A stretch of 64,000 nt of DNA from an uncultured Candidatus Saccharibacteria bacterium (GTDB lineage: Bacteria; Patescibacteriota; Saccharimonadia; Saccharimonadales; Saccharimonadaceae). The DNA lies in NCBI GenBank assembly GCA_963530345.1, contig CAUSBR010000001.1, positions 104,053-168,052 on the forward strand. The letters are read 5' to 3'. Position numbers and translations under genes: made by a program. Below the pieces are notes generated by a model, which searched no databases, was not told where the DNA came from, and saw only the letters and a list, made by a program, of their open reading frames with translations. Below are positions 2,917-23,607 of the stretch, in pieces; position 1 is the stretch's first letter; every line of letters begins with the position of its first letter.

Positions 2917-3711
2917 ATGAAGAGGGCAAAAGCACTGCGAAAAATGGCGACTTGCCTGTTTGTAGCGGCCTTTTTAGCGATGATTAGCTGGATGCTGTAT
3001 GATATACTGCAGCGCGACAGCAGCATCTCCAACGACACCGACGTGCTGGTCATGGGTACAAACGCGACATTTAAACCTTTTGAGTATAAAGATGGCGGCC
3101 AGGTGGTTGGCTTTGATGTCGAATTGGCGCAAGCTATTGCCAAAGACATGGGCAAAGAGCTAAAAATCGAGGATATGTCGTTTGATGGCTTGTTGCCGGC
3201 GCTTGAGAGCGGGCAAATCGATATGGCGGTGGCCGGTATGTCGGTGACTTCGGAGCGTGAGAAAAACGCGCTGTTTTCGGATCCTTACTACCAGGCGTCG
3301 CAGCGAATAATTGTACCCAAAAATAGCAAGATAGCCAATAAGTATCAATTAGAACACAAAAAAATTGCTGTGCAGCTCGGTACGACGGGCGACCAGGCAG
3401 CTTCTAAAATTAAGGGAGCGCAAGTCGTGCAATTCCCGGCAGCGCCGAATGCTTTGCAAGAATTAGCGGCTGGCAAAGTTGACGCAGCGGTGATTGATGA
3501 TGCGCCGGCTAAGCAGTACGTCTCTGGGTTTCCTTCGCTCAAAATTATCAACACGCCGCTGAGTAGTGAAAGCTACGCGATCGCTTTCAAAAAAGGCAAT
3601 ACCGAACTGGCCGAGCATGCCAACAAAACGATTGCCAATATGAAAGCCGACGGTCGTTACCAAGCGTTGTTGCAGAAATACTTTGGCACGGCGAAGGAGC
3701 AGGCACCATGA
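2917..3711 (+). CDS. Basic/polar amino-acid ABC transporter substrate-binding protein (SBP family 3), membrane anchored
   Basis: GTNATFKPFEY, GFDVELA, FDGLLPALESGQIDM motifs; N-terminal TM. Confidence 0.9.
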   Translation: MKRAKALRKMATCLFVAAFLAMISWMLYDILQRDSSISNDTDVLVMGTNATFKPFEYKDGGQVVGFDVELAQAIAKDMGKELKIEDMSFDGLLPALESGQIDMAVAGMSVTSEREKNALFSDPYYQASQRIIVPKNSKIANKYQLEHKKIAVQLGTTGDQAASKIKGAQVVQFPAAPNALQELAAGKVDAAVIDDAPAKQYVSGFPSLKIINTPLSSESYAIAFKKGNTELAEHANKTIANMKADGRYQALLQKYFGTAKEQAP

Positions 3712-4430
3712 ATTTTGGCGAAGTGATTTTTGGTGACGGGCGCTGGGTTTATCTATGGCACGGACTAGAAATAACATTGGTTTTGACAGTATTATCGGTG
3801 GCATTAGGTGTAATCATCGGCATAATTATCGCGTTGATGCGGGTGTCAAAAATCCGTCCGTTTAGTTGGCTAGGGCGCTTTCCGCAGCTGAAGCGTTTGG
3901 CTAGGTGGAATCCGGTAGCTGGTCTTGGACGTTTGTACGTTGAAATCATTCGTGGTACACCACTGTTGGTGCAGCTGCTTATTATGTATTATGTAGTATT
4001 TGGATCGTATCGTTTCATGCCGAAGATTTTCGTGGCGGCAATCGCCTTTGGTATCAATAGTGGCGCTTATGTGGCGGAAATCATTCGCGGCGGCATAGAG
4101 AGTATTGATAATGGACAGCTAGAAGCAGCGCGTTCGCTAGGTTTGAGCTATCCGCAGGCGATGCGCTATGTGATTTTGCCGCAAGCGATGAAAAATTCGC
4201 TGCCAGCGTTGATTAGCGAGTGCATTGCTATGCTTAAGGAAACGTCGGTAGTCGGCTGGATTGGCTTGGGTGATATTATGCGTGGCGCTGACGATATCCG
4301 CTCGTTGACAGCGACAGCATTCCAGTCGTTGTTTGCGGCGGCGGTTATGTATTTAGCGTTGACGGTTATCTTTACGAAAGTGATGCGGCGTTTCGAGAAG
4401 GGAGTGCAAGCTGATGATCAGGACGCGTAA
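3708..4430 (+). CDS. Amino-acid ABC transporter permease (HisM/GlnP family)
   Basis: [16 protein letters not shown] and EAARSLG (EAA loop). Confidence 0.92.
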
Positions 4431-5136
4431 CTTGCGCAAATATTTTGGATCCAACCACGTGCTGCGCGGGATTGATTTGACGATCGAGGACGGTGAAGTA
4501 TTAGTGATTGTCGGGTCGAGTGGCTCCGGTAAATCGACGCTGCTAAGATGTTTGAATTTACTTGAAAAACCCACTTATGGATCGGTTTTTGTTGATGACG
4601 TTGACATCACTCAACCGCACGTTAATATTAATAAAATCCGCCAGCGTATCGGTATGGTGTTTCAGCAATTTAATCTATTCCCTAATATGACAGTACTAGA
4701 TAATATCAAATTAGCGCCTAAGAAACTACGCAAAGTATCGGATCGTAAAGCGAATCGGCGAGCCAAAGAGCTGCTTGAGCAGGTTGGTTTAGCTAACAAA
4801 GCCAACGAATATCCTCAGCATCTGTCGGGCGGCCAGCGGCAGCGAGTGGCTATCGCTCGAGCGCTCGCTATGGAGCCAGAAGTTATGTTGTTTGATGAGC
4901 CGACTAGCGCGCTTGACCCGGAAATGATTGGCGAGGTACTTGACGTGATGCGCGATTTGGCTAAGCAGGGCATGACCATGGTGATCGTCACGCATGAAAT
5001 GAGCTTTGCCCGTGAAGTTGGCACACGGATGATTTTCCTTGACAAAGGCGACATCATTGAAGACGGTCCGCCTAAACAAGTAATGGATCATCCAAAGACT
5101 GAGCGAGCGCGCCAGTTCTTTGATGCTGATAAATAG
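4414..5136 (+). CDS. Amino-acid ABC transporter ATP-binding protein (GlnQ family)
   Basis: [37 protein letters not shown]. Confidence 0.93.
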
Positions 5137-5305: not shown

Positions 5306-5746
5306 GTGGTTAGTAAGCGAGAAAAATCAGATAAGGATAGTCAGGCGCCGCCGGTTAAAAAGCGTACTAGTGTTAAATCTGCATCAAAGAATCGTGAAAA
5401 ATTACATGATGATTTGGCAAATAAGAAGTCTGGCGGCAAGCTAGATCCTGGTCTGTATTGTTTCACGGCCATCGCTCAGTTTCATGGTATTCCTGCTGAC
5501 CCAGAGCAGATTGCTCGCGCCTTAGCGATTGATCCGCGTGTAGGTATGAGTGAAGCGGATATGCTATGGGCGGCGCGTTCGCTCAAATTGAAGGCGCGGG
5601 CGTCTACGGTTAATTTTAAGCAATTAGCGAAGTTGCCATTGCCGCTGATCGTTGGTATGAAGGATGAAAAGTTTGCGGTGTTGGCGCAAATTGTTGCGGT
5701 GGCTTTTATGCTCCATGATCGTATTATAGTGCAGGTATGTCTGTAA
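5306..5746 (+). pseudogene. Truncated type I secretion ABC transporter (HlyB-like): only the N-terminal C39-like domain remains
   Basis: LYCF..IAQFHGIPADPEQI...AARSLKLKA...LAKLPLPLI matches the HlyB C39-like domain; ends before any TM or ATPase domain. Confidence 0.7.
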
Positions 5747-5807
5747 TAACTCGTTGTATTGCGCTCATTCTTAAGATAAAATGATAAGCAATAGGGGGCT
5801 GTACTGT

Positions 5808-6632
5808 ATGGCGAAGAGTAAAAGCAAAAGAGCGAGCAAGTCGCGCGTAAATAATAAAAAAGCCTGGCAGGTTATTTTAATTATTCTGTCGTCAATAGTC
5901 GTAGTAATGACGGCAGTGTACATTGTAGGCGGAATTATAGTAGATAGAGAAATTAATAAACGTTCGGTTAGTGATAAGACAGAGCAAGCCAATATTGCTA
6001 ATTATCTAAAAAACAAATACAACCAAGATTTTGAGGTGGAAAAACCCAGCTGCAACGGCGGTGGCCTTGGGGTCTCTTGTGTATGGTCTACTGATGCTTA
6101 TCCTAAATCAGATAAAAGTATAAAGATACATATTTCTCGGGTGGATAACCAGACGAAGTACAGCGACGACTATGTAGTAAGAACTTGGCAAAAAGAACAA
6201 ACTGCCAAAATTCAGCCCAAAGTCAGAGAAATATTTAAAGACATGCCCGTTGACGTCAAAGTTAGATTAGGCGTAATAGATCCAGACGTAGAACGCACCT
6301 TCACTCTGAAAAAGCCAACTTTTGAGGAGGTATTTTTGGCTGAAAATAAAGTTGGGCAGCGTGGCAATTTAGCTTATGGATTATATTTTAAATATAATGG
6401 CGATATTAAGGAGGCTAATCGGTTTGCGAACAGTATTTACGAAATGACAGATTATATAAAAAATATGGGCGTTAGTCTTAAAGATATATCTGTGAACATA
6501 TATCTATCAAAAGGAGGTAAGCTTGTTTCAAAAGGATATTGTAATAGTAATAAACTAGCATCAATTGATGAACTAAAAAGTTGTATTGATGCAACAAAAA
6601 ATACGCCCGTGGAGGAGGGTGATAGATGGTAA
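5808..6632 (+). CDS. Membrane-anchored hypothetical protein, candidate immunity protein
   Basis: Basic N-terminus plus TM, YLKNKYNQDFEV motif, AT-rich, overlaps the lipase start; ATG 5808 preferred over 5781. Confidence 0.6.
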   Translation: MAKSKSKRASKSRVNNKKAWQVILIILSSIVVVMTAVYIVGGIIVDREINKRSVSDKTEQANIANYLKNKYNQDFEVEKPSCNGGGLGVSCVWSTDAYPKSDKSIKIHISRVDNQTKYSDDYVVRTWQKEQTAKIQPKVREIFKDMPVDVKVRLGVIDPDVERTFTLKKPTFEEVFLAENKVGQRGNLAYGLYFKYNGDIKEANRFANSIYEMTDYIKNMGVSLKDISVNIYLSKGGKLVSKGYCNSNKLASIDELKSCIDATKNTPVEEGDRW

Positions 6633-7735
6633 GAACGATTGATTACTTAAATTTGTCAGCATTAGCTTATGTTGACTTCAAAAAATCTGATGCCGGATTA
6701 ACTCTGGATGAGATTGTTAAAGACGAGCAAAAGAATAAACCGCGCAAAAGTTTTAACCTATCAGATCATCAGCTCTCCGCTCTCCGAGACTCTTCTAACC
6801 CCCTCCGCTCCTTTGTGCTTCTTTCGCAATCTCCACTTACATATACTCGCACAGTTAAAGATCGTAATGGTGTTAGAACTATTACGGTAGAAAATGAGTT
6901 TTCTTGCATTGCTCTACAGAACCCAGAAACCAAAGAAATTATATTCGCTTTTCGTGGTACTAACAATTTTGGAGATTGGGACACTGATGGGCTTATTGGC
7001 TCTAGAGTATTTCCAGCAGACTGGATGGGGCAATTTGCTGCTGCTAGAAAGTTTGTTTTTCAAACTCTCAATCAATATGGCCCTATTTGTTATAACGATC
7101 AGAAGGCGATGTTTAAGGCTATTGGTCAAGGTAGTAATGTTAGCTTCACTGGGCACTCTCTCGGCGGTGCGTTGGCTCAATATATGACATATAAGACCGC
7201 CAAATTGGACAAAGGTGACGCTGGTATAAAGTCTGTAACTTTTGATGCTGTTGGTATTGGCGATAATGTTGGCGTATCATCTATAGATGCTGGCAAGTAC
7301 AACTCTACAGATCATGTCAATTCTCTTGACTGGGTCGGTACATATGGATTGCAACTCGGTAAAACTGTTACTCATATAGACAACTCCGAAGTAGATTATC
7401 TATCGGATGCGTCTGGATTAGCAGATGAAGTGCATCTTGGTTATGACTCGCTAGATATTATATTTGAGCGTACTGGCAGTAACCTCCGCCTCCGCATGCC
7501 AGGCTCGCTTGACGCTATTACGGTTAGTTCGTGGTATGGCAGCGATAATTACAAAATTGAGACTTTCAAGTCGGCTAACGGCAGTGTTATCACGCATACT
7601 CAGGTCGATAGTCTCATTCAAGCTATGTCTTCTTTCCAAAAAGACACTGGTATGACTTGGGAGCAAGCTGTAATAAATCAGCCAACGCAGGTGCAGTCTA
7701 TCATCCAGCAATATTGGACAGCGCCGACTACTTGA
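6626..7735 (+). CDS. Lipase class 3/DUF2974-type hydrolase domain fused to an RTX-type C-terminal secretion region
   Basis: FAFRGT and FTGHSLGGALA lipase motifs; C-terminal ITVSSWYGSDNYKIETF...VDSLIQAMSSF typical of RTX C-termini. Confidence 0.75.
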   Translation: MVRTIDYLNLSALAYVDFKKSDAGLTLDEIVKDEQKNKPRKSFNLSDHQLSALRDSSNPLRSFVLLSQSPLTYTRTVKDRNGVRTITVENEFSCIALQNPETKEIIFAFRGTNNFGDWDTDGLIGSRVFPADWMGQFAAARKFVFQTLNQYGPICYNDQKAMFKAIGQGSNVSFTGHSLGGALAQYMTYKTAKLDKGDAGIKSVTFDAVGIGDNVGVSSIDAGKYNSTDHVNSLDWVGTYGLQLGKTVTHIDNSEVDYLSDASGLADEVHLGYDSLDIIFERTGSNLRLRMPGSLDAITVSSWYGSDNYKIETFKSANGSVITHTQVDSLIQAMSSFQKDTGMTWEQAVINQPTQVQSIIQQYWTAPTT

Positions 7736-7752: not shown

Positions 7753-7780
7753 TTGCATAAGCGTCATAAATCTATATAAT
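7753..7780 (+). promoter_or_regulatory. Sigma70-type promoter of the arc operon
   Basis: TTGCAT-16 nt-TATAAT, with GGAG just upstream of the GTG start. Confidence 0.6.
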
Positions 7781-7829: not shown

Positions 7830-10205
7830 GTGGGCGTGAATCAAAAACCATTGCAAATCAATTCTGAAATCGGTGTACTAAAGACCGTACTGTTGCACCG
7901 GCCGGGCGAGGAGCTAGAGAATCTTACCCCTGATTATCTCAAGGACTTATTGTTCGACGATATTCCGCACCTGAAGGTGGCGCAAGAAGAGCATGATGAA
8001 TTTGCCAACGTTCTGCGCGACCATGGCGTCGAAGTGCTGTATTTGGACGAATTGGTAACAGAGGCATTAAACAGTGATAATCTGAAAGCAGAATTTGTCG
8101 ACGAAATGCTAGCAGCTTCCAAACAAGATTCGCGGCGAGTCACGCAAAGTTTGCGCGATTACCTATTATCGATGCCGACCAACAAGATGGTGCGCAAAAT
8201 TATGGCTGGCGTGCGCAAGGACGAGATTTCGCTGCCGCCAGAGCATCACCAGCAGCTGCACGATATGGTTGAGCAAGACCATTATCCATTTTACCTAGAT
8301 CCAATGCCGAATTTGTACTTTACACGCGATCCAGCCGCGACTATTGGCAACGGCTTGACGATTAACAAGATGCACTGGCCAGCTCGCCGCCGCGAGTCGC
8401 TGTTCATGCGCTATATCATCGACCATCATCCGCGATTTGCTGGCCACGATATTCCAGTTTGGTATAATCGCGACGAGAAGTTCTCGATGGAGGGCGGCGA
8501 CGAGCTGGTGTTGAGCAGCGAAGCTATGGCGATCGGTATCAGCGAGCGCACTACCGCCGAGGCAATCGAGAAAATGGCAACTGAGTTGTTTGCTGATTCT
8601 AACTTCAAGAAAATTATCGCTCTCGAGATTCCGAAAAGCCACGCGTTTATGCACCTAGACACGGTCTTCACTATGATAGATTACGATAAGTTCACGATCC
8701 ACCCGGAGATTCGCGACTTTGAAGGCAAGATGAATCTGTTTATCCTCGAAAAAGTTGAAGGGCAAGCTTATCCGAAGATCACCAAGCAGCATGATCTTGA
8801 AAAAGCGTTGTGCGAAGCGCTGCATTTGCCAAAGATTAACCTGATTGAATGCGGCGGCGGCGATGAGATTGCGGCAGCTCGCGAGCAGTGGAATGACGGT
8901 TCGAATACTTTGGCGATTGCGCCGGGCGTGGTGGTGACTTACGATCGTAACTATGTCACCAATGCTAAATTGCGCGAAGCTGGCGTCGAGGTCATCGAGG
9001 TTAGCGGTTCAGAACTCGGCCGCGGCCGCGGCGGCCCGCGCTGTATGAGTATGCCGCTGGTGCGCGAAGATCTGGACAACGAGCAGGTTACTGATAGAGT
9101 TACTTCGGCGGAGCGTTCGCTGGCAGCCACCTTGGCGGTACCAATGATTCAAGAGGAGCACGTCCGCAAAGTGGTGCCAGTAACTACAGATTCGACTACT
9201 ACAACGGCAGCTAAGCTGCCAACCAGTCTGAAGGGTCGCTCTTTCTTGACCTTGAAAGACTTTTCACCGAGCGATATTCGGCTGATGCTTGATACAGCAC
9301 ACGATCTCAAACAGCAAAAGAAAGCGGGCAAAGCACACCGTATTCACGAGGGCAAACAAGTGGCTTTGCTCTTTGAAAAGACATCGACGCGAACTCGCTG
9401 CGCCTTTACGGTAGCTGCTAATGATTTGGGTGTGGCACCAGAATTTCTCGGTAAAGACGATATTCAGCTAGGTAAAAAAGAGTCAGTCGAAGATACCGCT
9501 AAGGTGCTGGGCCGCATGTTTGACGGTATTGAATTCCGCGGCTTTAAGCATTCCAACGTCGAAGCGTTAGCGAAATATGCTGGCGTGCCAGTCTGGAATG
9601 GTTTGACGGATACTTTCCACCCGACACAGATTTTGGCAGACTTTATGACTATTGAGGAGCATGTCGGCAAGCTCAACGGTGCTAAGCTGGTCTTCGTTGG
9701 CGACGGACGCAATAATATGGCAAATAGCTTGCTGATTGGTGCGGCCAAGATGGGCGTCGATTTCCGAATCCTAGCACCACGACAGCTGCATCCGTCGGGC
9801 GATCTAGTTAGCCTAGCACGTTCAATTGCTATGGAAACTGGCGCGAAGATTACCATCACTGATAACCGTGCCGAAGCGCTAGAAGGGGCTGACGCTATTT
9901 ACACTGATGTCTGGGTATCAATGGGCGAGGAAGACAAGTTCGCTGAGCGAATTGCCCTGCTCAAGCCGTACCAGGTCAATGCGCAAATGCTAGCCGAGAC
10001 GCATAACCCGAACGTCAAATTCTTGCATTGTTTGCCATCATTCCATGACCTTAATACCGAGACTGGCCAGAAGATTCACGATCAATTCGGTCTTGACTCG
10101 ATGGAGGTCACTGACGAGGTCTTTAGCGGCGAGCACAGCGTTGTCTTTGATGAGGCTGAAAACCGCATGCACACTATCAAGGCTGTGATGGCATTGACGC
10201 TATAA
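7830..10205 (+). CDS. arcA-arcB: Arginine deiminase-ornithine carbamoyltransferase fusion (ArcA-ArcB)
   Basis: ADI motifs ([32 protein letters not shown]), a ~51-aa linker, then OTC motifs (STRTR, HPTQ, HCLP, AENRMH) in one ORF. Confidence 0.95.
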
Positions 10206-10232
10206 ATCCGAGTTGAAGGAGGCTCGAACAAA

Positions 10233-11714
10233 ATGGCAATCAAACAATTAGCAAGAAAAAAGGACGGGTTAGGACTCTGGTCGCTGACTGGCTTAGTGGT
10301 CGGCAGTATGATCGGTGCAGGTATCTTTAACCTTGTTCAAGGTACGGCTGAGGCGGCTGGTCCGCTGGCGACGATTATTGCGTGGCTGATTACGGGCGTT
10401 GGAATGATATTCCTGATTCTCAGTTTCCGCAACCTGACTATCAAAAAGCCGAAACTTAATGCTGGCGTGTATAGCTACGCTGAGGCTGGCTTTGGCAAGT
10501 ATGTTGGCTTTAATTCGGCGTGGGGTTACTGGATTTCTGCTTGGATTGGTAATATTGCTTATGCAGTAGCCGTTTTCTCGGCGCTTGGTTATTTCTTTCC
10601 AGACTTGTTTGGTAAAGGCCAAAACTGGGCGTCAGTGGTTGGTATGTCGGTACTGCTGTGGAGCGTTCATTTATTAATCCTTAAAGGTGTCAAAACGGCA
10701 AGCTTCATTAATGCTTTGGTGACGGCGGCGAAATTAATCCCGCTTGCGATCTTTTTGCTAGCGATATTCTTGTCGTTCAAGGTTGGCTTGTTTAACCAAG
10801 ACCTTTGGGGCTTAGCCGGCAACAACTTTGATATGGGCGCTGTGATTGAGCAGGTCAAGAATATGATGCTGGTTACCGTCTGGGTGTTTATCGGTATCGA
10901 GGGTGCAGTTGTATTTTCAGGTCACGCCAAGAAGCGTAGCGATATCATCAAGGCAACGTTGATCGGTTTTGCTGGCGTGCTTTCGATTTATGTGCTGATG
11001 ACGGTGCTGGCTTTTGGTGTAGCGACTCAGAAAGATCTGGCTGCACTAGATAGTCCGGCGATGTCGATGCTGTTGGAACGCTTGGTTGGACCGTGGGGCG
11101 CTTGGCTGGTTAATATCGGCTTGATGATCGCAGTTTTGGGTGGTTGGCTAGCTTGGACGATGTTTGCTGCCGAACTACCGTATCAGGCAGCTAAGAATAA
11201 GACTTTCCCGTCGATATTCGCCAAAGAAAATAAAGTTGGCGCGCCAGTAGTGTCGCTGTTGGTTACTAACATCCTGGTACAGATATTCCTGCTGACAATC
11301 CCTGGAACTGAAGGCTCAGCCTATAATATTGGTATTTCGATTGCTACTTCGGCTATTTTGATCCCATATGCCCTGACGGCGTTTTATCAATTGAAGGTTT
11401 CGTTGCAGGAGAAAAAAACCGTTAAGCACCGCGCTTTTAATATCTTTGTGGGTGCGATGGCTAGTGTTTATGCGGTATGGCTAGTGTATGCGGCCGGTAT
11501 GCAATATCTGCTTATAACAGTGTTCTTGTATGCACCAGGCATGTTGGTCTACGTCTTGATGCAGATCAAGAATCGCAAGAAGATCTTCACGCTATATGAA
11601 CTGCTTTTGGCGGTTGTCGTGATTGCGTTATTTGCTTACGCAGTACAACAGCTGCTGGCTGGTGCGCTGGACGATACGTTAGGTATTAAAATCGCTGATT
11701 TAATCGGTCAATGA
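10233..11714 (+). CDS. arcD: Arginine/ornithine antiporter (APC family)
   Basis: GSMIGAGIF and WVFIGIEGA motifs, many TM helices, arc operon context. Confidence 0.9.
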   Translation: MAIKQLARKKDGLGLWSLTGLVVGSMIGAGIFNLVQGTAEAAGPLATIIAWLITGVGMIFLILSFRNLTIKKPKLNAGVYSYAEAGFGKYVGFNSAWGYWISAWIGNIAYAVAVFSALGYFFPDLFGKGQNWASVVGMSVLLWSVHLLILKGVKTASFINALVTAAKLIPLAIFLLAIFLSFKVGLFNQDLWGLAGNNFDMGAVIEQVKNMMLVTVWVFIGIEGAVVFSGHAKKRSDIIKATLIGFAGVLSIYVLMTVLAFGVATQKDLAALDSPAMSMLLERLVGPWGAWLVNIGLMIAVLGGWLAWTMFAAELPYQAAKNKTFPSIFAKENKVGAPVVSLLVTNILVQIFLLTIPGTEGSAYNIGISIATSAILIPYALTAFYQLKVSLQEKKTVKHRAFNIFVGAMASVYAVWLVYAAGMQYLLITVFLYAPGMLVYVLMQIKNRKKIFTLYELLLAVVVIALFAYAVQQLLAGALDDTLGIKIADLIGQ

Positions 11715-11723
11715 TAATAAATG

Positions 11724-11758
11724 AAACGGGCGCGCCTGAAATACAGCGCGCCCGTTTT
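11724..11758 (+). terminator. Intra-operon GC-rich hairpin (terminator or attenuator-like)
   Basis: AAACGGGCGCG...CGCGCCCGTTT, a perfect 11-bp stem ending in TTTT, between arcD and the DDAH gene. Confidence 0.7.
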
Positions 11759-11777
11759 GCCAAATGAAGGAGAAAAG

Positions 11778-12551
11778 ATGTTTAAGTATGCCATTGTTCG
11801 CCGTCCGTCACATAGTTTGATTGATGGTATCAGCCAAACGCCAGAAATGGGCAAGCCAGACTATGATTTAGCATTGCAGCAGCATGATCGCTATGTCGAG
11901 ATTTTGCGCGAATGCGGTTTGGAAGTGACGGTTCTAGAGGCCAACGAAGATTATCCAGACAGTGTGTTTATCGAGGATAACGCGTTGTGTACGCCACACG
12001 GCGTGGCAATTTTGTCGCGTCCTGGTGCTGAGAGTCGTCGTGGCGAAGCTAGTCTGCCAGATTTGCGCGAAGCATTGGCGCGCTACTATGACGACATTGA
12101 ACAAGTTGTCGAGCCAGGCACAACTGATCCAGGCGATATTATGATGGTGGGCGATCACTATTACATCGGGTTGAGCGGCCGTACCAATCAAGCGGCAGCC
12201 GACCAAATCACGGCAATTCTCGAGAAGCATGGTATGACCGCCGAGACAGTGCCAGTGACAGGTATTCTACACCTGAAAGACGATGTGGTCTACTTAGATA
12301 ATAACAACTTGATCGTCGCTAAAGCTTACGAAAATCATCCAGCTTTTGCTAACTTTAATAAGCTGGTCGTTGATGACGATGAATACTATGCAGTGAATAG
12401 TTTGTGGATAAACGGCAAGGTGATCGTGCCAGAAGGCTTCCCGAAAACTGAGCAAAAGATTCGCGATTGCGGTTACGAAGTGATTCTGATCAATACTAGC
12501 GAGTTTGAGAAAATTACCGGCAGCCTAACTTGCATGTCGTTGAGGTTTTAA
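11778..12551 (+). CDS. Dimethylarginine dimethylaminohydrolase (DDAH, amidinotransferase superfamily)
   Basis: PDSVFIED, RPGAESRRGE, GDIMMVGDHYYIGLSGRTN, LHLK and C-terminal TCMSLRF resemble Pseudomonas DDAH; AAGGAG RBS before ATG 11778. Confidence 0.85.
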   Translation: MFKYAIVRRPSHSLIDGISQTPEMGKPDYDLALQQHDRYVEILRECGLEVTVLEANEDYPDSVFIEDNALCTPHGVAILSRPGAESRRGEASLPDLREALARYYDDIEQVVEPGTTDPGDIMMVGDHYYIGLSGRTNQAAADQITAILEKHGMTAETVPVTGILHLKDDVVYLDNNNLIVAKAYENHPAFANFNKLVVDDDEYYAVNSLWINGKVIVPEGFPKTEQKIRDCGYEVILINTSEFEKITGSLTCMSLRF

Positions 12552-12555
12552 CAAC

Positions 12556-13500
12556 ATGCCGGGTAAGATTGTAGTTGCACTTGGCGGCAATGCTTTGCAA
12601 AAGCAAGGCGAGGCTTCGGCTCACGCCCAACAAGACGTCGCCGACGAGACAGCTCGTCAGCTAGTGCCGTTGATTTTGGCTGGCTATCAGCTGGTAATCG
12701 TTCACGGCAACGGACCGCAAGTTGGTAATATTGTTTTGCACGAAGAAGCAATTAACACGCCAGAAGTACCGACTTTCCCGCTTGATACGTGCGTAGCGAT
12801 GAGCCAAGGGGCGATCGGTTTTTGGTTGCAGCAAGCGTTGATTGACGAATTCTCGCGCCGACAAATGAAAAGCGTCGCTTCGACAGTTGTTACGCAAGTA
12901 GTGGTTAACGCTAACGATCCGGCTTTTAGCAATCCTACGAAGCCAATTGGCGTATTTTATCAGACGGAGACAGAAGCTCGGCAGGCTGCTAACGGTCGTA
13001 ACTTCACATTCAAAGAAGACGCTGGGCGCGGTTGGCGGCGCGTGGTACCGTCGCCGAAGCCGCAGCGGATTGTCGAAGAATATACGGTCAAAGCGATGAT
13101 TGATGCTGGCGTGACGGTTATCACGGGTGGCGGTGGCGGCGTGCCGGTTGTTGAAACTGTCAGTGATGGCTTAGAGGGGGTCGAGGCAGTAATTGATAAG
13201 GATTTCACAGCGGCAGTGGTGGCTGATGCGATTGATGCTGAGGCACTGGTGATACTGACGGCAGTTGATGGCGCGATGGTTGATTATGGTAAACCGACCG
13301 CGCGCACAATTGGACGCACTAATCTCCAAGAGATGCAGCGCTACATTGACGAAAATCAGTTCGCGCCGGGTAGTATGCTGCCCAAAGTGCAAGCGGCCTT
13401 GAAATTTGTCGAAAAGCCAGGTCGCCGAGCGATTATCGCTAGCCTGGGTAGCGCCGAACAAGCCTTGGCCGGGCAGGTTGGCACTATTATCGAGAGCTAG
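12556..13500 (+). CDS. arcC: Carbamate kinase
   Basis: VALGGNAL, HGNGPQVG, GWRRVVPSP, GVEAVIDKD, GSMLPKV. Confidence 0.96.
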   Translation: MPGKIVVALGGNALQKQGEASAHAQQDVADETARQLVPLILAGYQLVIVHGNGPQVGNIVLHEEAINTPEVPTFPLDTCVAMSQGAIGFWLQQALIDEFSRRQMKSVASTVVTQVVVNANDPAFSNPTKPIGVFYQTETEARQAANGRNFTFKEDAGRGWRRVVPSPKPQRIVEEYTVKAMIDAGVTVITGGGGGVPVVETVSDGLEGVEAVIDKDFTAAVVADAIDAEALVILTAVDGAMVDYGKPTARTIGRTNLQEMQRYIDENQFAPGSMLPKVQAALKFVEKPGRRAIIASLGSAEQALAGQVGTIIES

Positions 13501-13520
13501 CTAATCTCTATAAGTACAGC

Positions 13521-13553
13521 AAAATAGCGCGAGTTTTAGCTCGGGCTATTTTT
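13521..13553 (+). terminator. Terminator after arcC
   Basis: AAAATAGCGCGAG-loop-CTCGGGCTATTTTT hairpin. Confidence 0.75.
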
Positions 13554-13570
13554 ATATTTTGATAATGCGG

Positions 13571-13631
13571 TTGACGTTTTTCGCTAACTTTCTTATACTT
13601 GGGTCTAGCACTCTGCGGTCAAGAGTGCTAA
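13571..13631 (+). promoter_or_regulatory. groESL promoter with CIRCE (HrcA operator)
   Basis: TTGACG-17-TATACT, then CTAGCACTC-N9-GAGTGCTAA at 13605-13631. Confidence 0.92.
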
Positions 13632-19608: not shown

Positions 19609-22600
19609 TTAACGCACTTCATATCTTACATCCTCAATAATTTCTCCGTTATCATCTAAATAGCAGATACCCTGAACCTCTAAGCGCTGCTTCGCATAAT
19701 TGCCATTATTGTGATAAAGTTTTTCACCCAGCACTGACCATATAATAGTTAAACTTTTTCTCTCGAGTTCTTCTATAAATGTATTCTTGTTTACTAATAA
19801 AGAATCTGAACTTAAGCATTCATCCAGATCGGGATTAAACATGCATATGTTTTTGTCTTTTGATTTATATACTCCTACGTTATTGGTATCTTGTATGCTT
19901 AATAACTTTCTTATGACTAAATTTGGACTATAAATTCTGATGCCTGTATTTCTAAGAGCTCGGTCTTCTTCAAAGCTACTGCCAGAATATTGAATAACAG
20001 GTTGTATAACTTTGAAGGGTGCTTGTTCGTCGGGAGTTATCCATCCATCGCTTGGCTCATAGATTGCTATAGTATCTTGATATGCAGAACTATTAGGGAA
20101 CTCTGAAAGAAATACCGAACGGCTATGGTCAGTGGGCTGTGGCAGTGTATCATTATAGAACCTTTTGCCTTTACTCCATCTCATAATTGTTTGTAAGTCT
20201 TTTTTATAAACAACATATCCTTGGGTGCGGATCCATAGTTCGCGATATCTTCTGTCGTCTTCATCTTCTGGGCTTTCTCTCTCACTCTTCCAAATCGCCC
20301 AGCTCAAGAGTGTAATAAAAGTCTTGTTGCTATGTTTGCTTTCTATTATAGTTTTTGGTCTTGGTATGTCTTCGGATGAAAATTGCCAGTTTTCTGTTCT
20401 CCATGCACTGTATGAAGGTTTCCACCAGATATCCTTTTCGTCGTCATTTTTGTTCGTGAATTTTTCCAATAGTAATGGATCGACGGTAGGGTCTAAATCT
20501 CTTGCGGATGTTTGGTAGGCACTTTTGAAAGTTGCAGGAGTATCGTCCAGCCAACGATCCTGAACATAGTAATAATTGGATCCTATCATTGCCAAGAATT
20601 CGTACAAGGCTATCCATTGGTATTTTTTACCTATACGCTCAACACTACTATTTTGGAGGCGATCAAAACTACCACGATCTCTATCATATTCTTCATGAAG
20701 CTCTGGACTCCATCCAAGCTTTATAACTCTGTCCATTATCCATCTACGCGCTATATTAATATCATAATCTTCGAAAGCTTTAGTAAAAGTTTTTTCACCG
20801 ACGACATAAAGCTTATATTTTTTATACTCACGTTTCTTAGAAGATGATAGCGATTTTTCAAAGTCATTTAATGCCCGTGACACCTCGTCATCTGATATTT
20901 TTTGCTTGATAGCAGTAGATTTAATGAGATTAAAACTGAGCCGATTACTTAATTTCTTGGAGTCATATTCTTCTAACAGCTTCTTCTGTTTTTTAGAAAG
21001 TGATTTCATGAATCTGTTGAAGTCTTTTCTAGAGGTGTTGGGGCTTAACAAATTTTTGGACAGGGGAATGTTCGTAAACTCACTTAAATAAAAATTTACC
21101 GTGTAGTTGCCAAAATCCGCTAAGGCAGCTCCACCTTCGCCATACATGAGTGATCTCCATATCAAGCAGTAATTGTTATTATCATATTCTCTTCTAAGAC
21201 TATCTATGTCTGGTATATCATTTGGAAACTTATAGTATGTGAATGGAGGCTTAATTTTATTAAGGTCTACGTGAATATTATTCTTGTATTTTCGAATATA
21301 TAGTTCAATTAGTCCTTTCGCATAGTCATCCAATAATGCGTCTGGTCTGCGACTTTTGTTTAGGAAGTGGTTTTTATAAATCCATAAAACTAATGACTGA
21401 AATCCAGCCTTATCATGTGGATTTAACGAAACAACGCCATATGTTGCGGCAAATAACCTCTCGACTATATAGGGATCGTCAACATTAATAAATATCTCTA
21501 GTAATTTTACTAGGACGTCTTGGTGATACCTAAATAGCTGGATTAATGCTCTTGTTGATCGATCGCGTAGGTTATTTTCCGTTGATGATAGAGTCCAGGC
21601 TAGGGCTATGCCGGTCAGCAGTATCGCCTTTTGGTCGCTGATGTCCCTTGGTAGCCTACTAATGCTCCAAGATTGGATCCTTGATATGGCATTACCTTGT
21701 TCGCTGGTAGCGTTAAGTATGTATTGCTGAAACCACGAATCTCTTTCTGCTAAATTAGTTCCACTCAAGATTTCATGAAGCCTCATTGCATTTAGCGGGT
21801 GATTGGGAACCACGGAGACGTCAAATAAGCAATCCATTACTTCATATAGGTCGTATATCGAATCATTCATATATGTACTTATATACTTTCTAATCTGAGA
21901 TTCATCGATATAGGAAGCCTTGCCTGTTTTCTTGTCAAAACCATCAAGTTCAACATTGCGCCATTTTATACTATTAAGGAACGCAGTCTTTATTCTATAA
22001 TCATCTCTGTATTTCTCTGGAATTACCCACACAAACTCAGCCTTATCTTTCTTACACCGTTCCGGTATTTCTATTGATAGCGCCTCTAATAATCCAGTGT
22101 TGTATATATTTTCATCCAAAAACTTTCCGTCTGCAAAAAATCTCTGAGCGCTTACTTCAGAGTTAATTTTATTCTCAGTGAGCAGGGAACGTACGATTAA
22201 GTGATCGCTAAAACGGTTGTAGGTAAATTTATATTTGTATTCAATTCTTTTGCTATTTTTTCCGTATCTTGGATACTTTAATAACAGACCATATTTTTCC
22301 ATCAATTTTAAGAGTTCTGATGCGTGACTAGATACTTTAGGGTCAGCCTTAATGATTTTTAATATATTATAGCGTGATATGACTGAGGTTCTGTTTTGCC
22401 CCATCCATTTACCAACTTCCTTTATCACATGTTTCCATAAATATTCTTTGCCTATTTTTATATTTAATTCTTTTGCTATCTTTTTTGACTGGACTTTTAC
22501 ATATTGCTCAAAGACATGTGTGGCACCCTTACCCTTAAATGTCTTATTTGTTTCACCTTCATAGGCTTCACAAAATATCATTAAAAACAACGGATTCCTG

Positions 22601-23607
22601 AATTCTGGATTAATAATTGGGATTTCTGGCATTTTCATCTTATAATGTTTGAAAAATGTAGATATGGCGTCCCACTCCATTTCTGAAAATCCAAAATGCT
22701 CTACTGTGCTATATTTTCTTCTGTTTGGTATTATTTTTTCATAACCATTGCGAACACTAATAACTAAAGACAGCCCCTTAATGTTAAAAAGTTCTGAGAG
22801 CTGTGACCATTTTATAGCATCCGCCTCGTTGATGGCGTCTATAATCAAACAAACTCTCTCGGGTGAGGAATTAGCTAGAGACCTCAAGTCCTTTAGAAAA
22901 CCTGCGCTAGTTGTGTAACCCATTAATTTCGCCATACACACTACGGGGTTTGTGTCTTCTATGCTTGCAAGCTCATCTGATAGAAAAATTAAGGTAGGTT
23001 TTCCAGAGTTAATTCGACTGTTGGCATAGTCGCAAAGTAAGTGGGTTTTTCCAATGCCAGCTTCGCCTTTTAGAATCATCCGTGGCGTAGAGAATAGATC
23101 TACTTTGACTCCATCATTGATAAAATCCAGCAAGCTCCTCAGTGCCACATAAAGTGACCATATAGGACCTGTATCAATGCTAGTTTTTGCCCACTCTTCC
23201 TTCTCTTGACGCTCTTTATCTTGGAGATCTCTGAAAAACCAATAAAGATCATTAGATAATTTTATGGCGATTTTTAGCTTATTAGTTAATATACTCCATG
23301 ATATATTTTCGTTCTTTGATTTAGTTTTTAAGCTTAGTAATTTATCAATAACTGATTTTACATTTTTGTGTAGCTGTTTTAATTCTTCCGTTTTGTCTGG
23401 GTGATCAGTTCTAAAAAATAATAATTCTTTTTTCGCCTTATAAGTTAACTTAAATAGCTCAGCGAGGTACTCAGGTTCTCGATTTAGGGCTTGAAGGTTT
23501 CTTTTTATATTCTTGATTTCTAAATTAATATCACGATTGTATCGTAAACCAGCGCTGTTGTTGGCTCGTTTTAATCTTTCTTTTTGTGCTTGATTATCTA
23601 GTTTCAT
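19609..23607 (-). CDS. STAND NTPase, Avs (AVAST)-like anti-phage sensor with no recognisable N-terminal effector
   Basis: Walker A GEAGIGKTHLL, Walker B LIIDAINE, NPLFL and ERIGKKYQWIA motifs; 1332 aa; visibly AT-rich compared with its flanks. Confidence 0.75.
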   Translation of the reverse strand: MKLDNQAQKERLKRANNSAGLRYNRDINLEIKNIKRNLQALNREPEYLAELFKLTYKAKKELLFFRTDHPDKTEELKQLHKNVKSVIDKLLSLKTKSKNENISWSILTNKLKIAIKLSNDLYWFFRDLQDKERQEKEEWAKTSIDTGPIWSLYVALRSLLDFINDGVKVDLFSTPRMILKGEAGIGKTHLLCDYANSRINSGKPTLIFLSDELASIEDTNPVVCMAKLMGYTTSAGFLKDLRSLANSSPERVCLIIDAINEADAIKWSQLSELFNIKGLSLVISVRNGYEKIIPNRRKYSTVEHFGFSEMEWDAISTFFKHYKMKMPEIPIINPEFRNPLFLMIFCEAYEGETNKTFKGKGATHVFEQYVKVQSKKIAKELNIKIGKEYLWKHVIKEVGKWMGQNRTSVISRYNILKIIKADPKVSSHASELLKLMEKYGLLLKYPRYGKNSKRIEYKYKFTYNRFSDHLIVRSLLTENKINSEVSAQRFFADGKFLDENIYNTGLLEALSIEIPERCKKDKAEFVWVIPEKYRDDYRIKTAFLNSIKWRNVELDGFDKKTGKASYIDESQIRKYISTYMNDSIYDLYEVMDCLFDVSVVPNHPLNAMRLHEILSGTNLAERDSWFQQYILNATSEQGNAISRIQSWSISRLPRDISDQKAILLTGIALAWTLSSTENNLRDRSTRALIQLFRYHQDVLVKLLEIFINVDDPYIVERLFAATYGVVSLNPHDKAGFQSLVLWIYKNHFLNKSRRPDALLDDYAKGLIELYIRKYKNNIHVDLNKIKPPFTYYKFPNDIPDIDSLRREYDNNNYCLIWRSLMYGEGGAALADFGNYTVNFYLSEFTNIPLSKNLLSPNTSRKDFNRFMKSLSKKQKKLLEEYDSKKLSNRLSFNLIKSTAIKQKISDDEVSRALNDFEKSLSSSKKREYKKYKLYVVGEKTFTKAFEDYDINIARRWIMDRVIKLGWSPELHEEYDRDRGSFDRLQNSSVERIGKKYQWIALYEFLAMIGSNYYYVQDRWLDDTPATFKSAYQTSARDLDPTVDPLLLEKFTNKNDDEKDIWWKPSYSAWRTENWQFSSEDIPRPKTIIESKHSNKTFITLLSWAIWKSERESPEDEDDRRYRELWIRTQGYVVYKKDLQTIMRWSKGKRFYNDTLPQPTDHSRSVFLSEFPNSSAYQDTIAIYEPSDGWITPDEQAPFKVIQPVIQYSGSSFEEDRALRNTGIRIYSPNLVIRKLLSIQDTNNVGVYKSKDKNICMFNPDLDECLSSDSLLVNKNTFIEELERKSLTIIWSVLGEKLYHNNGNYAKQRLEVQGICYLDDNGEIIEDVRYEVR

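What the first reader, a model, noticed from the sequence alone, without database searches (positions are those of the whole stretch)
7830..13500. Extended arginine deiminase operon with a DDAH: possible ATP generation from methylarginines
Seen: the gene order is arcA-arcB fusion, arcD, a DDAH-like gene, arcC. Established: DDAH converts ADMA/L-NMMA to citrulline plus methylamines, and citrulline is the OTC substrate that yields carbamoyl phosphate and then ATP through carbamate kinase. Arginine deiminase systems are reported in mammal-associated Saccharibacteria, but DDAH is not a canonical member of the pathway. Inference: this reduced epibiont has a second entry into the pathway, using host-derived methylated arginines for energy or clearing them as inhibitors of ADI or ArcD.
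Basis: partly seen in the sequence, partly recalled or inferred. Interest (0 to 1): 0.85.

Follow-up and report, generated by a model that had tools for sequence, protein, structure and literature searches.

The report
Arginine-energy operon with variant methylarginine hydrolase
A tiny bacterial parasite's arginine-to-ATP operon carries an extra enzyme, a remodelled relative of the methylarginine hydrolase DDAH, which probably lets it recycle chemically modified arginine through the same energy pathway, though exactly which modified arginine is still open.

Summary
Confirmed: arcA-arcB fusion, arcD, ddah-like gene, arcC. All 64 Saccharibacteria loci fetched with this gene have that order, and the gene is under strong purifying selection (median pN/pS 0.015). 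The protein has the DDAH fold (TM 0.96 to 1h70), catalytic triad, substrate anchors and the His-x-Lys mark that separates DDAH from ADI. But it is a variant: D168 and T247 replace Ser/Thr and Asp (seen in 1 and 0 of 150 family representatives), and 247 is a pocket position. Three other genomes of the family keep a canonical and a variant copy in the same arc operon, suggesting different substrates; the window's lineage keeps only the variant. Some Bacilli have ddah-arcD-arcB-arcC without an adjacent arcA, independent support for DDAH feeding OTC and carbamate kinase. Not new: the fusion (Southlakia) and the DDAH-to-ATP idea (Mycoplasma hominis, where ADMA gave no growth). Verdict: an accessory citrulline-forming entry for N-substituted arginines, with a small ATP yield; ADMA as its substrate is unproven. 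New variant of a known kind, interest 0.55.

The parts
7753..7780 (+). Weak promoter-like site upstream of arcA (TTGCAT, 16 nt, TATAAT)
   Evidence: Read directly; not reported by the consensus scan because the -35 match is only 3 of 6; untested
7830..10205 (+). ArcA-ArcB fusion: arginine deiminase (about residues 5-415), linker of about 45 aa, ornithine carbamoyltransferase (about 466-791); likely start GTG 7836
   Evidence: ADI and OTC motifs located; in-frame fusion in 26 of 64 related loci
10233..11714 (+). ArcD, APC-family arginine/ornithine antiporter
   Evidence: TIGR00905 over, TIGR03810 just under cut-off; groups with ArcD of ddah-free Saccharibacteria arc operons L116 and L118 (support 93, FastTree)
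11724..11757 (+). G+C-rich stem-loop between arcD and ddah; more likely an mRNA stabiliser, processing site or leaky terminator than a full stop
   Evidence: z -5.4; z -2.9 to -5.5 in four relatives with different sequences; the intergenic region folds at -19.9 to -32.6 kcal/mol in all 64 loci and lacks a U-tract in the larger clade
11778..12551 (+). DDAH-like amidinohydrolase, 257 aa, variant clade (motifs HLKDD and KITGSLTC)
12556..13500 (+). ArcC, carbamate kinase; starts 4 bases after the ddah stop
13521..13553 (+). Terminator-like hairpin with T tail closing the operon before groES
   Evidence: stem 13530-13543 plus tail; weak on its own (z -1.8 for 13498-13600)

Best explanation
This is an arginine deiminase operon with an accessory second entry. 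ArcD swaps internal ornithine for external arginine and, inferred, also lets in N-omega-substituted arginines that ADI cannot use. The DDAH-like enzyme attacks the guanidino carbon with Cys252 (His165, Asp117), releases the amine and leaves L-citrulline; OTC and carbamate kinase then give ornithine, which refuels the antiporter, and one ATP. The window's enzyme belongs to a variant clade with a remodelled leaving-group pocket, so its preferred substituent probably differs from that of canonical DDAH. A methylarginine remains the likeliest single class (L-NMMA or ADMA), but another N-substituted arginine is possible. The gain is clearance of an otherwise dead-end antiporter substrate plus a small extra ATP and alkali yield. 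Shown: gene order, conservation, fold, residues, selection, paralog pairs. Inferred: co-transcription, transport, substrate, product, flux and benefit.
For: Order conserved in 64 of 64 Saccharibacteria loci. In the genus 52 of 79 genomes carry the gene and 61 of 79 carry arcA, and all 52 are among the 61; in a family sample 12 of 301 carry ddah and all 12 are among the 69 with arcA. No stop or gap in 64 copies, median pN/pS 0.015 over 24 close pairs. Fold TM 0.96 and 48% identity to P. aeruginosa DDAH 1h70. D61, F64, E66, D67, R87, R135, H165, K167, N207 and C252 are invariant in 64 of 64; the Lys at His+2 is the residue said to admit the dimethylamino group where ADI has Asp (PMC11659421 section 9). 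Shifted pocket: position 168 is S/T in 137 of 150 representatives and D in 1; position 247 is D in 122 and T in none of the 144 with residues at all four sites. The position five residues before the nucleophile lies in the substrate pocket and is Asp in both DDAHs; human Asp269 clamps the substituted guanidine NH and Leu271 lines the leaving-group pocket (PMC10958460 passages), and these align to T247 and S249. G545, G634 and G668 keep a canonical-motif and a variant copy in one arc operon. ddah-arcD-arcB-arcC with no arcA in the locus occurs in Vagococcus (L258, L259) and Enterococcus (L272), and the L188/L258 genome has no arcA over the cut-off.
Against: No activity, transport or transcript data. 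The protein scores under the NCBIfam DDAH cut-off, although canonical-motif relatives do too (348 and 405 bits). The loss of Asp at 247 comes with a new Asp at 169 in all 11 aligned clade members and could be compensatory, leaving ordinary specificity. Most arcA-bearing genomes of the family sample lack the gene (57 of 69), and close sisters run arcAB-arcE-arcC without it, so it is dispensable. Outside Saccharibacteria most ddah genes are not next to arcB/arcC (carbamate kinase in 3 of 78 loci; OTC plus kinase in 5 of 80, one of them a Saccharibacterium; the two sets share some contigs). The L259 and L272 genomes have arcA elsewhere. The closest non-Saccharibacteria relative (Pseudoclavibacter albus, 81%) has the gene alone. 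ADMA is about 200-fold scarcer than arginine in plasma and did not support M. hominis growth. A hairpin lies just upstream of the gene.
Confidence: 0.55

Rival explanations
1. It is an ordinary dimethylargininase (ADMA and L-NMMA, as in P. aeruginosa); the changed residues only compensate each other, and ATP from host methylarginines is the selected benefit.
For: All catalytic and anchoring residues and the His+2 Lys are kept; an Asp is lost at 247 while Asp appears at 168/169, a pattern that can be a reciprocal swap; Asp at the triad position 117 is common (99 of 150) and Ser at 249 is not rare (15 of 150); the window's lineage does without a canonical copy.
Against: Canonical and variant copies are kept together in three arc operons, which is hard to explain if they do the same job; D168 and T247 are almost absent from the family; ADMA is scarce and gave no growth in M. 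hominis.
Confidence: 0.22
2. The variant acts on an unsubstituted or non-standard arginine analogue (plain L-arginine, D-arginine, canavanine, homoarginine): a second, small deiminase that backs up or protects ADI.
For: New carboxylates next to the catalytic His recall the Asp that ADI uses there; in G574 an ornithine-racemase-like gene occupies the variant's slot, and such racemases lie near ddah in 7 distinct loci, hinting at stereoisomers.
Against: His+2 stays Lys, the DDAH mark; the alpha-amino and carboxylate anchors are unchanged, which argues for the L-form and the same chain length; an intact ADI is already in the operon.
Confidence: 0.1
3. The enzyme removes an inhibitor but its product does not enter OTC (for example SDMA giving N-methylcitrulline, or amidino transfer), so it protects the pathway without adding ATP.
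For: Pocket changes could admit a substrate that canonical DDAH refuses; DDAH is not listed among SDMA's routes of elimination in humans (PMC7764698 table passage); the gene stands alone in P. albus.
Against: Tight coupling to arcC and repeated joining of ddah to arcB/arcC modules fit a citrulline product better; no direct evidence for SDMA binding.
Confidence: 0.08
4. The gene is a passenger in the operon with an unrelated role.
For: Dispensable in sister lineages; hairpin upstream.
Against: Never found without arcA in the genus (0 of 52) or the family sample (0 of 12); same slot in operons with a different transporter and only 58-64% ADI identity.
Confidence: 0.05

Closest known systems
Arginine deiminase system of Nanosynbacter lyticus TM7x (arcA-arcB-arcE-arcC) and Southlakia epibionticum (ArcA-ArcB fusion, antiporter, ArcC)
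   Same: Same three enzymes and gene order; the fusion is described for Southlakia (PMC10633639 passages); ATP from arginine shown in TM7x (PMC8764695, PMC12815258 passages)
   Different: APC-type ArcD instead of ArcE, and a DDAH-like gene between antiporter and arcC; no mention of DDAH in those main texts or in the two supplements held
Pseudomonas aeruginosa DDAH (PDB 1h70; NCBIfam NF045658)
   Same: 48% identity, TM 0.96, same triad positions, substrate anchors and His-x-Lys
   Different: E114 to D, T165 to D, G166 to D, D244 to T, G246 to S, S248 to T (P. aeruginosa numbers counted from the alignment); embedded in an arc operon
Mycoplasma hominis DDAH MHO_2540 with the ADI pathway
   Same: Reduced-genome, arginine-fermenting organism; the same 'secondary citrulline-producing pathway' was proposed (PMC2751442 passages)
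   Different: By locus tag the gene is far from arcA/B/C (MHO_2540 against MHO_0630-0690); the growth test on 0.5 mM ADMA was negative; here the gene is inside the operon
Agmatine deiminase pathway (recalled)
   Same: Logic of a different guanidino hydrolase plus antiporter feeding a carbamoyltransferase and carbamate kinase
   Different: No agmatine deiminase family hit for this protein; the transferase scores as OTC, not putrescine carbamoyltransferase (268 bits, cut-off 500)

Membership tests
Dimethylargininase (DDAH, EC 3.5.3.18) | Five-fold alpha/beta propeller without extra domains, closest to DDAH | tested here: met
   Model pLDDT 91.8; best match 1h70, TM 0.96, rmsd 1.2
Dimethylargininase (DDAH, EC 3.5.3.18) | Cys-His-Asp/Glu catalytic triad | tested here: met
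   C252, H165, D117 align with the mutated sites of 1h70 (C249S) and 3bpb (H162G); invariant in 64 of 64
Dimethylargininase (DDAH, EC 3.5.3.18) | Anchors for alpha-amino, carboxylate and guanidino groups (Asp, Glu-Asp, two Arg) | tested here: met
   D61, E66, D67, R87, R135
Dimethylargininase (DDAH, EC 3.5.3.18) | Lys at His+2 (Asp in ADI), said to admit the dimethylamino group | tested here: met
   K167; role from PMC11659421 section 9
Dimethylargininase (DDAH, EC 3.5.3.18) | Asp five residues before the nucleophile and Ser/Thr at His+3 | tested here: not met
   T247 and D168; family has D in 122 and S/T in 137 of 150 representatives; pocket role
Dimethylargininase (DDAH, EC 3.5.3.18) | Score over the curated NF045658 cut-off | tested here: inconclusive
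   331 against 450, but canonical-motif relatives also fall short (348, 405), so the cut-off does not discriminate
Dimethylargininase (DDAH, EC 3.5.3.18) | Hydrolyses ADMA or L-NMMA to citrulline | not testable with these tools
   Needs an enzyme assay
Arginine deiminase (for 11778-12551) | About 410 aa with helical domain, His-x-Asp, score over TIGR01078 | tested here: not met
   257 aa, His-x-Lys, 28 bits against 489
Arginine dihydrolase ArgZ / citrulline hydrolase CtlX | Profile match over cut-off | tested here: not met
   NF052232 30 bits (450), NF046062 22 bits (334); ArgZ ranks below all DDAH structures
Arginine deiminase system (operon) | ADI, OTC and carbamate kinase clustered | tested here: met
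   All three over their cut-offs, motifs present
Arginine deiminase system (operon) | Arginine/ornithine antiporter | tested here: met
   TIGR00905 over, TIGR03810 574 against 591; nearest non-ddah relatives lie in arc operons
Arginine deiminase system (operon) | Co-transcription and ATP formation | not testable with these tools
   No run on record as RNA

The most novel reading that the evidence does not exclude
Host-associated Saccharibacteria and some Bacilli run a 'modified-arginine deiminase' energy pathway: DDAH paralogs with different pockets (and sometimes a racemase) funnel several arginine derivatives into OTC and carbamate kinase, and the variant clade here is a new enzyme specificity that hydrolyses a derivative canonical DDAH cannot use (for example SDMA, N-hydroxyarginine or a glycated arginine).
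Probability: 0.3. Interest if true: 0.8.

Novelty: new variant of a known kind. Interest (0 to 1): 0.55.

Why it matters
If true, a 0.9-Mb epibiont whose relatives depend on arginine fermentation has widened that pathway to modified arginines, some of which inhibit host nitric-oxide synthase. The paralog pairs give a direct, cheap test of what bacterial DDAH-family enzymes are for and of how one pocket sets specificity among guanidino hydrolases. The arcA-free ddah-arcD-arcB-arcC modules make the old, unresolved M. hominis question (can methylarginine yield ATP?) testable in cultured Bacilli.

Tried and rejected
Expression: no RNA holder listed; three contig-only runs laid cover the operon but may be DNA, so they say nothing on co-transcription. 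Idea that arcD and ddah arrived together as a cassette replacing arcE: weakened, because ArcD groups with the ddah-free Saccharibacteria operons L116 and L118, although the wider clade also holds ddah-linked Bacilli transporters. Convergence of the variant pocket with a second variant group (HLKDF/KIDGS; L227, L235, L279, L373): the trees separate them but a single clade was not rejected (p-AU 0.19), so not claimed. Transfer from Saccharibacteria to Pseudoclavibacter albus: it nests in the clade (100/99) and its gene has lower GC3 than its neighbour (0.78 against 0.89), but the alternative was not rejected (p-AU 0.09). Sister relation of variant and canonical Saccharibacteria copies: unsupported (43/9). 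The tree was the quick one; the careful search had not finished. The L045 row used a wrong offset and was dropped; redid the selection test. Full terminator before ddah: rejected as the main reading, since it would cut off arcC, most relatives lack the U-tract, and similar hairpins lie before ddah or arcC in the two-paralog operons. Promoter scan: 10 sites against 6.9 expected, uninformative. Earlier findings of the scan: nothing. No paper in the library gave roles for P. aeruginosa T165 or G246.
Full report
OBSERVATION. The four ORFs are present as described. Profiles name them ADI fused to OTC, an APC-type arginine/ornithine antiporter, a DDAH-like protein and carbamate kinase; the three core enzymes pass their curated cut-offs, the antiporter misses TIGR03810 narrowly (574 against 591) and the DDAH-like protein scores 331 against 450 on NF045658. 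ADI and OTC motifs are in place. The window's genome (0.89 Mb) holds one copy of each gene. Named relatives are Candidatus Saccharibacteria.

CONSERVATION. Of 68 loci fetched with the DDAH-like protein, 64 are Saccharibacteria and all 64 read arcA-arcB-arcD-ddah-arcC; 26 have the fusion and 38 separate genes, so the fusion and the extra gene are independent traits. In the genus, 52 of 79 genomes carry the gene and 61 carry arcA; the 52 are all among the 61. Of the nine with arcA only, five run fused arcAB-arcE-arcC (G018, G021, G035, G445, G473; four of them upstream of groES like the window), two are cut by contig ends (G454, G464), one has a lone arcA (G020) and one (G442) was not inspected. 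An even draw over the order found the gene in 1 of 401 genomes, the window's own, with only one other genome of the genus drawn. A family draw found it in 12 of 301, all among the 69 with arcA; six of the 12 are genus members already seen. Two other Saccharibacteria have arcA-arcB-arcD-arcC without it (L116, L118), and the window's ArcD groups with theirs. None of the 64 copies has a stop or gap, and median pN/pS over 24 close pairs is 0.015. These genomes are kin, so the counts are not independent.

TRANSCRIPT LOGIC. arcC starts 4 bases after the ddah stop, so the two almost certainly share a message (inference). The 63 bases between arcD and ddah hold a hairpin (z -3.9 and -5.4) that is kept as a structure with different sequences in relatives. 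The larger clade has no U-tract after it, and similar hairpins stand before ddah or arcC in other operons, so I read it as a stabiliser or leaky terminator that tunes the downstream genes. No RNA data were available.

THE ENZYME. It is 48% identical to P. aeruginosa DDAH and its model (pLDDT 91.8) matches 1h70 with TM 0.96. It keeps the triad (C252, H165, D117), the anchors D61, E66, D67, R87, R135 and the His+2 Lys that separates DDAH from ADI (PMC11659421 section 9). It differs at D168, D169, T247 and S249, invariant in all 64 copies despite synonymous change. Among 150 family representatives at 50% identity, position 168 is S/T in 137 and D in 1, and position 247 is D in 122 and T in none of the 144 with residues at all four sites; among the 120 best protein hits, 100 are canonical and 20 belong to the variant clade. 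Position 247 lies in the substrate pocket and is Asp in both solved DDAHs; its human equivalent clamps the substituted guanidine NH, and the equivalent of 249 lines the leaving-group pocket (PMC10958460 passages; alignment to bovine DDAH1). The variants form one well-supported clade (100/100, 15 of 37 rows).

PARALOG PAIRS. Six genomes of the family sample outside the set above also carry ddah after an arcE transporter inside the arc operon: G545, G634 and G668 have a canonical-motif copy and a variant copy; G499 and G532 have the canonical copy only; G574 has the canonical copy followed by an ornithine-racemase-like gene. The two types are about 55% identical. Keeping both in 0.6-0.7 Mb genomes is the best evidence that they do different jobs, and the window's lineage has only the variant. 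A second variant group sits beside canonical copies in Aerococcus kribbianus and in a metagenome contig; whether it arose separately was not settled.

OUTSIDE SACCHARIBACTERIA. DDAH genes often neighbour an ArcD-like permease (20 of 78 loci; 46 of 80; the sets overlap in part and the second was drawn around a Vagococcus protein). Links to arcB/arcC are rarer but real: ddah-arcD-arcB-arcC without arcA in the locus in two Vagococcus genomes and one Enterococcus, ddah-arcD-arcB in two more Bacilli, and ddah-ddah-arcA-arcB-racemase-arcD-arcC in Aerococcus. One of the Vagococcus genomes shows no arcA over the cut-off; the other four genomes checked have arcA elsewhere. A module of DDAH, antiporter, OTC and kinase makes sense only if the DDAH product is citrulline and ATP is wanted (inference from established pathway chemistry).

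MECHANISM. Established chemistry: DDAH turns ADMA or L-NMMA into citrulline and an amine through a Cys adduct; OTC and carbamate kinase give ornithine and one ATP. I infer that ArcD admits N-substituted arginines, that ADI cannot use them, and that this enzyme returns them to the pathway, restoring the ornithine spent on import. The energy share is probably small: plasma holds about 100 uM arginine and 0.5 uM ADMA (PMC7764698); concentrations in the organism's own habitat were not found. The substrate is open: a methylarginine is likeliest, but the pocket and the paralog pairs argue against simply copying the P. aeruginosa profile.

PRIOR WORK. The Saccharibacteria ADS is known as a four-gene operon (PMC8764695, PMC12815258, PMC11659515; passages), the fusion is described in Southlakia (PMC10633639; passages), and DDAH as a second citrulline source for ATP was proposed for M. 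hominis, with no growth on 0.5 mM ADMA under canavanine (PMC2751442; passages). M. tuberculosis Rv2323c, annotated as DDAH, is needed for growth on plain arginine (PMC4569260; title and one passage), a warning that the label does not fix the substrate. PMC10294761, PMC6273216 and PMC10256801 were seen as passages only and added nothing decisive. I found no description of ddah inside a Saccharibacteria arc operon, of the variant clade or of the arcA-free modules in ten searches of an open-access library (listings and abstract starts) and two supplements; subscription papers are mostly missing from that library.

VERDICT. Real and conserved; works like DDAH feeding the deiminase pathway, but is not filed as a bona fide dimethylargininase because one pocket feature fails and activity is untested. 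New variant of a known kind; interest 0.55.

Noticed in passing
window 2917-5136: Polar amino-acid ABC transporter (binding protein, permease, ATPase); it lies directly upstream of arcA in several relatives (for example L025, L030-L034, L036, L045), and similar binding proteins neighbour ddah in 5 of 78 and 14 of 80 other loci. Could be a second uptake route for arginine or its derivatives.
   Followed up: partly
window 5306-7735: Low-GC variable insert between the ABC transporter and arcA: a C39-domain fragment, an unknown protein and a class-3 lipase with a haemolysin-type calcium-binding-related domain; absent, duplicated or broken in relatives.
   Followed up: no
window 19609-23607 (- strand): NACHT protein of 1332 aa matching the Avs2 anti-phage family (E 2.6e-250), in low-GC DNA.
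   Followed up: no
L079:8001-8774: The actinobacterium Pseudoclavibacter albus carries a stand-alone variant gene 81% identical to the window's, nested among Saccharibacteria copies and only partly adapted in GC3; possible transfer between an epibiont lineage and a host-type lineage, direction not settled.
   Followed up: partly
L118:3736-8443: A Saccharibacteria genome whose record title names Lac Pavin (a lake; recalled) has a complete arcA-arcB-arcD-arcC operon, 74% identical in ADI, against the view that the pathway is confined to mammal-associated lineages.
   Followed up: no
L437:5606-6718, L273, L277, L279, L283, L365, L373: Ornithine-racemase-like genes (NF040742, 365-382 bits for the three scored, under the 480 cut-off) recur beside ddah genes in 7 distinct loci; none in the window's genome.
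   Followed up: partly
L094:6548-7507, L095:4593-5468: Genus members G014 and G002, with no arcA match, carry a different guanidino hydrolase, best matching the mycobacterial DDAH-like and ArgZ profiles (for L094).
   Followed up: no
L092:1297-5779: G020 has a divergent lone arcA next to an M20 peptidase and argininosuccinate synthase, with no arcB or arcC in the 15 kb fetched.
   Followed up: no
L188:5215-5862, L190, L260, L270, L273, L277, L283: A divergently transcribed regulator precedes ddah in many Bacilli; GntR-like by eye (label recalled, no profile search), a candidate methylarginine sensor.
   Followed up: no
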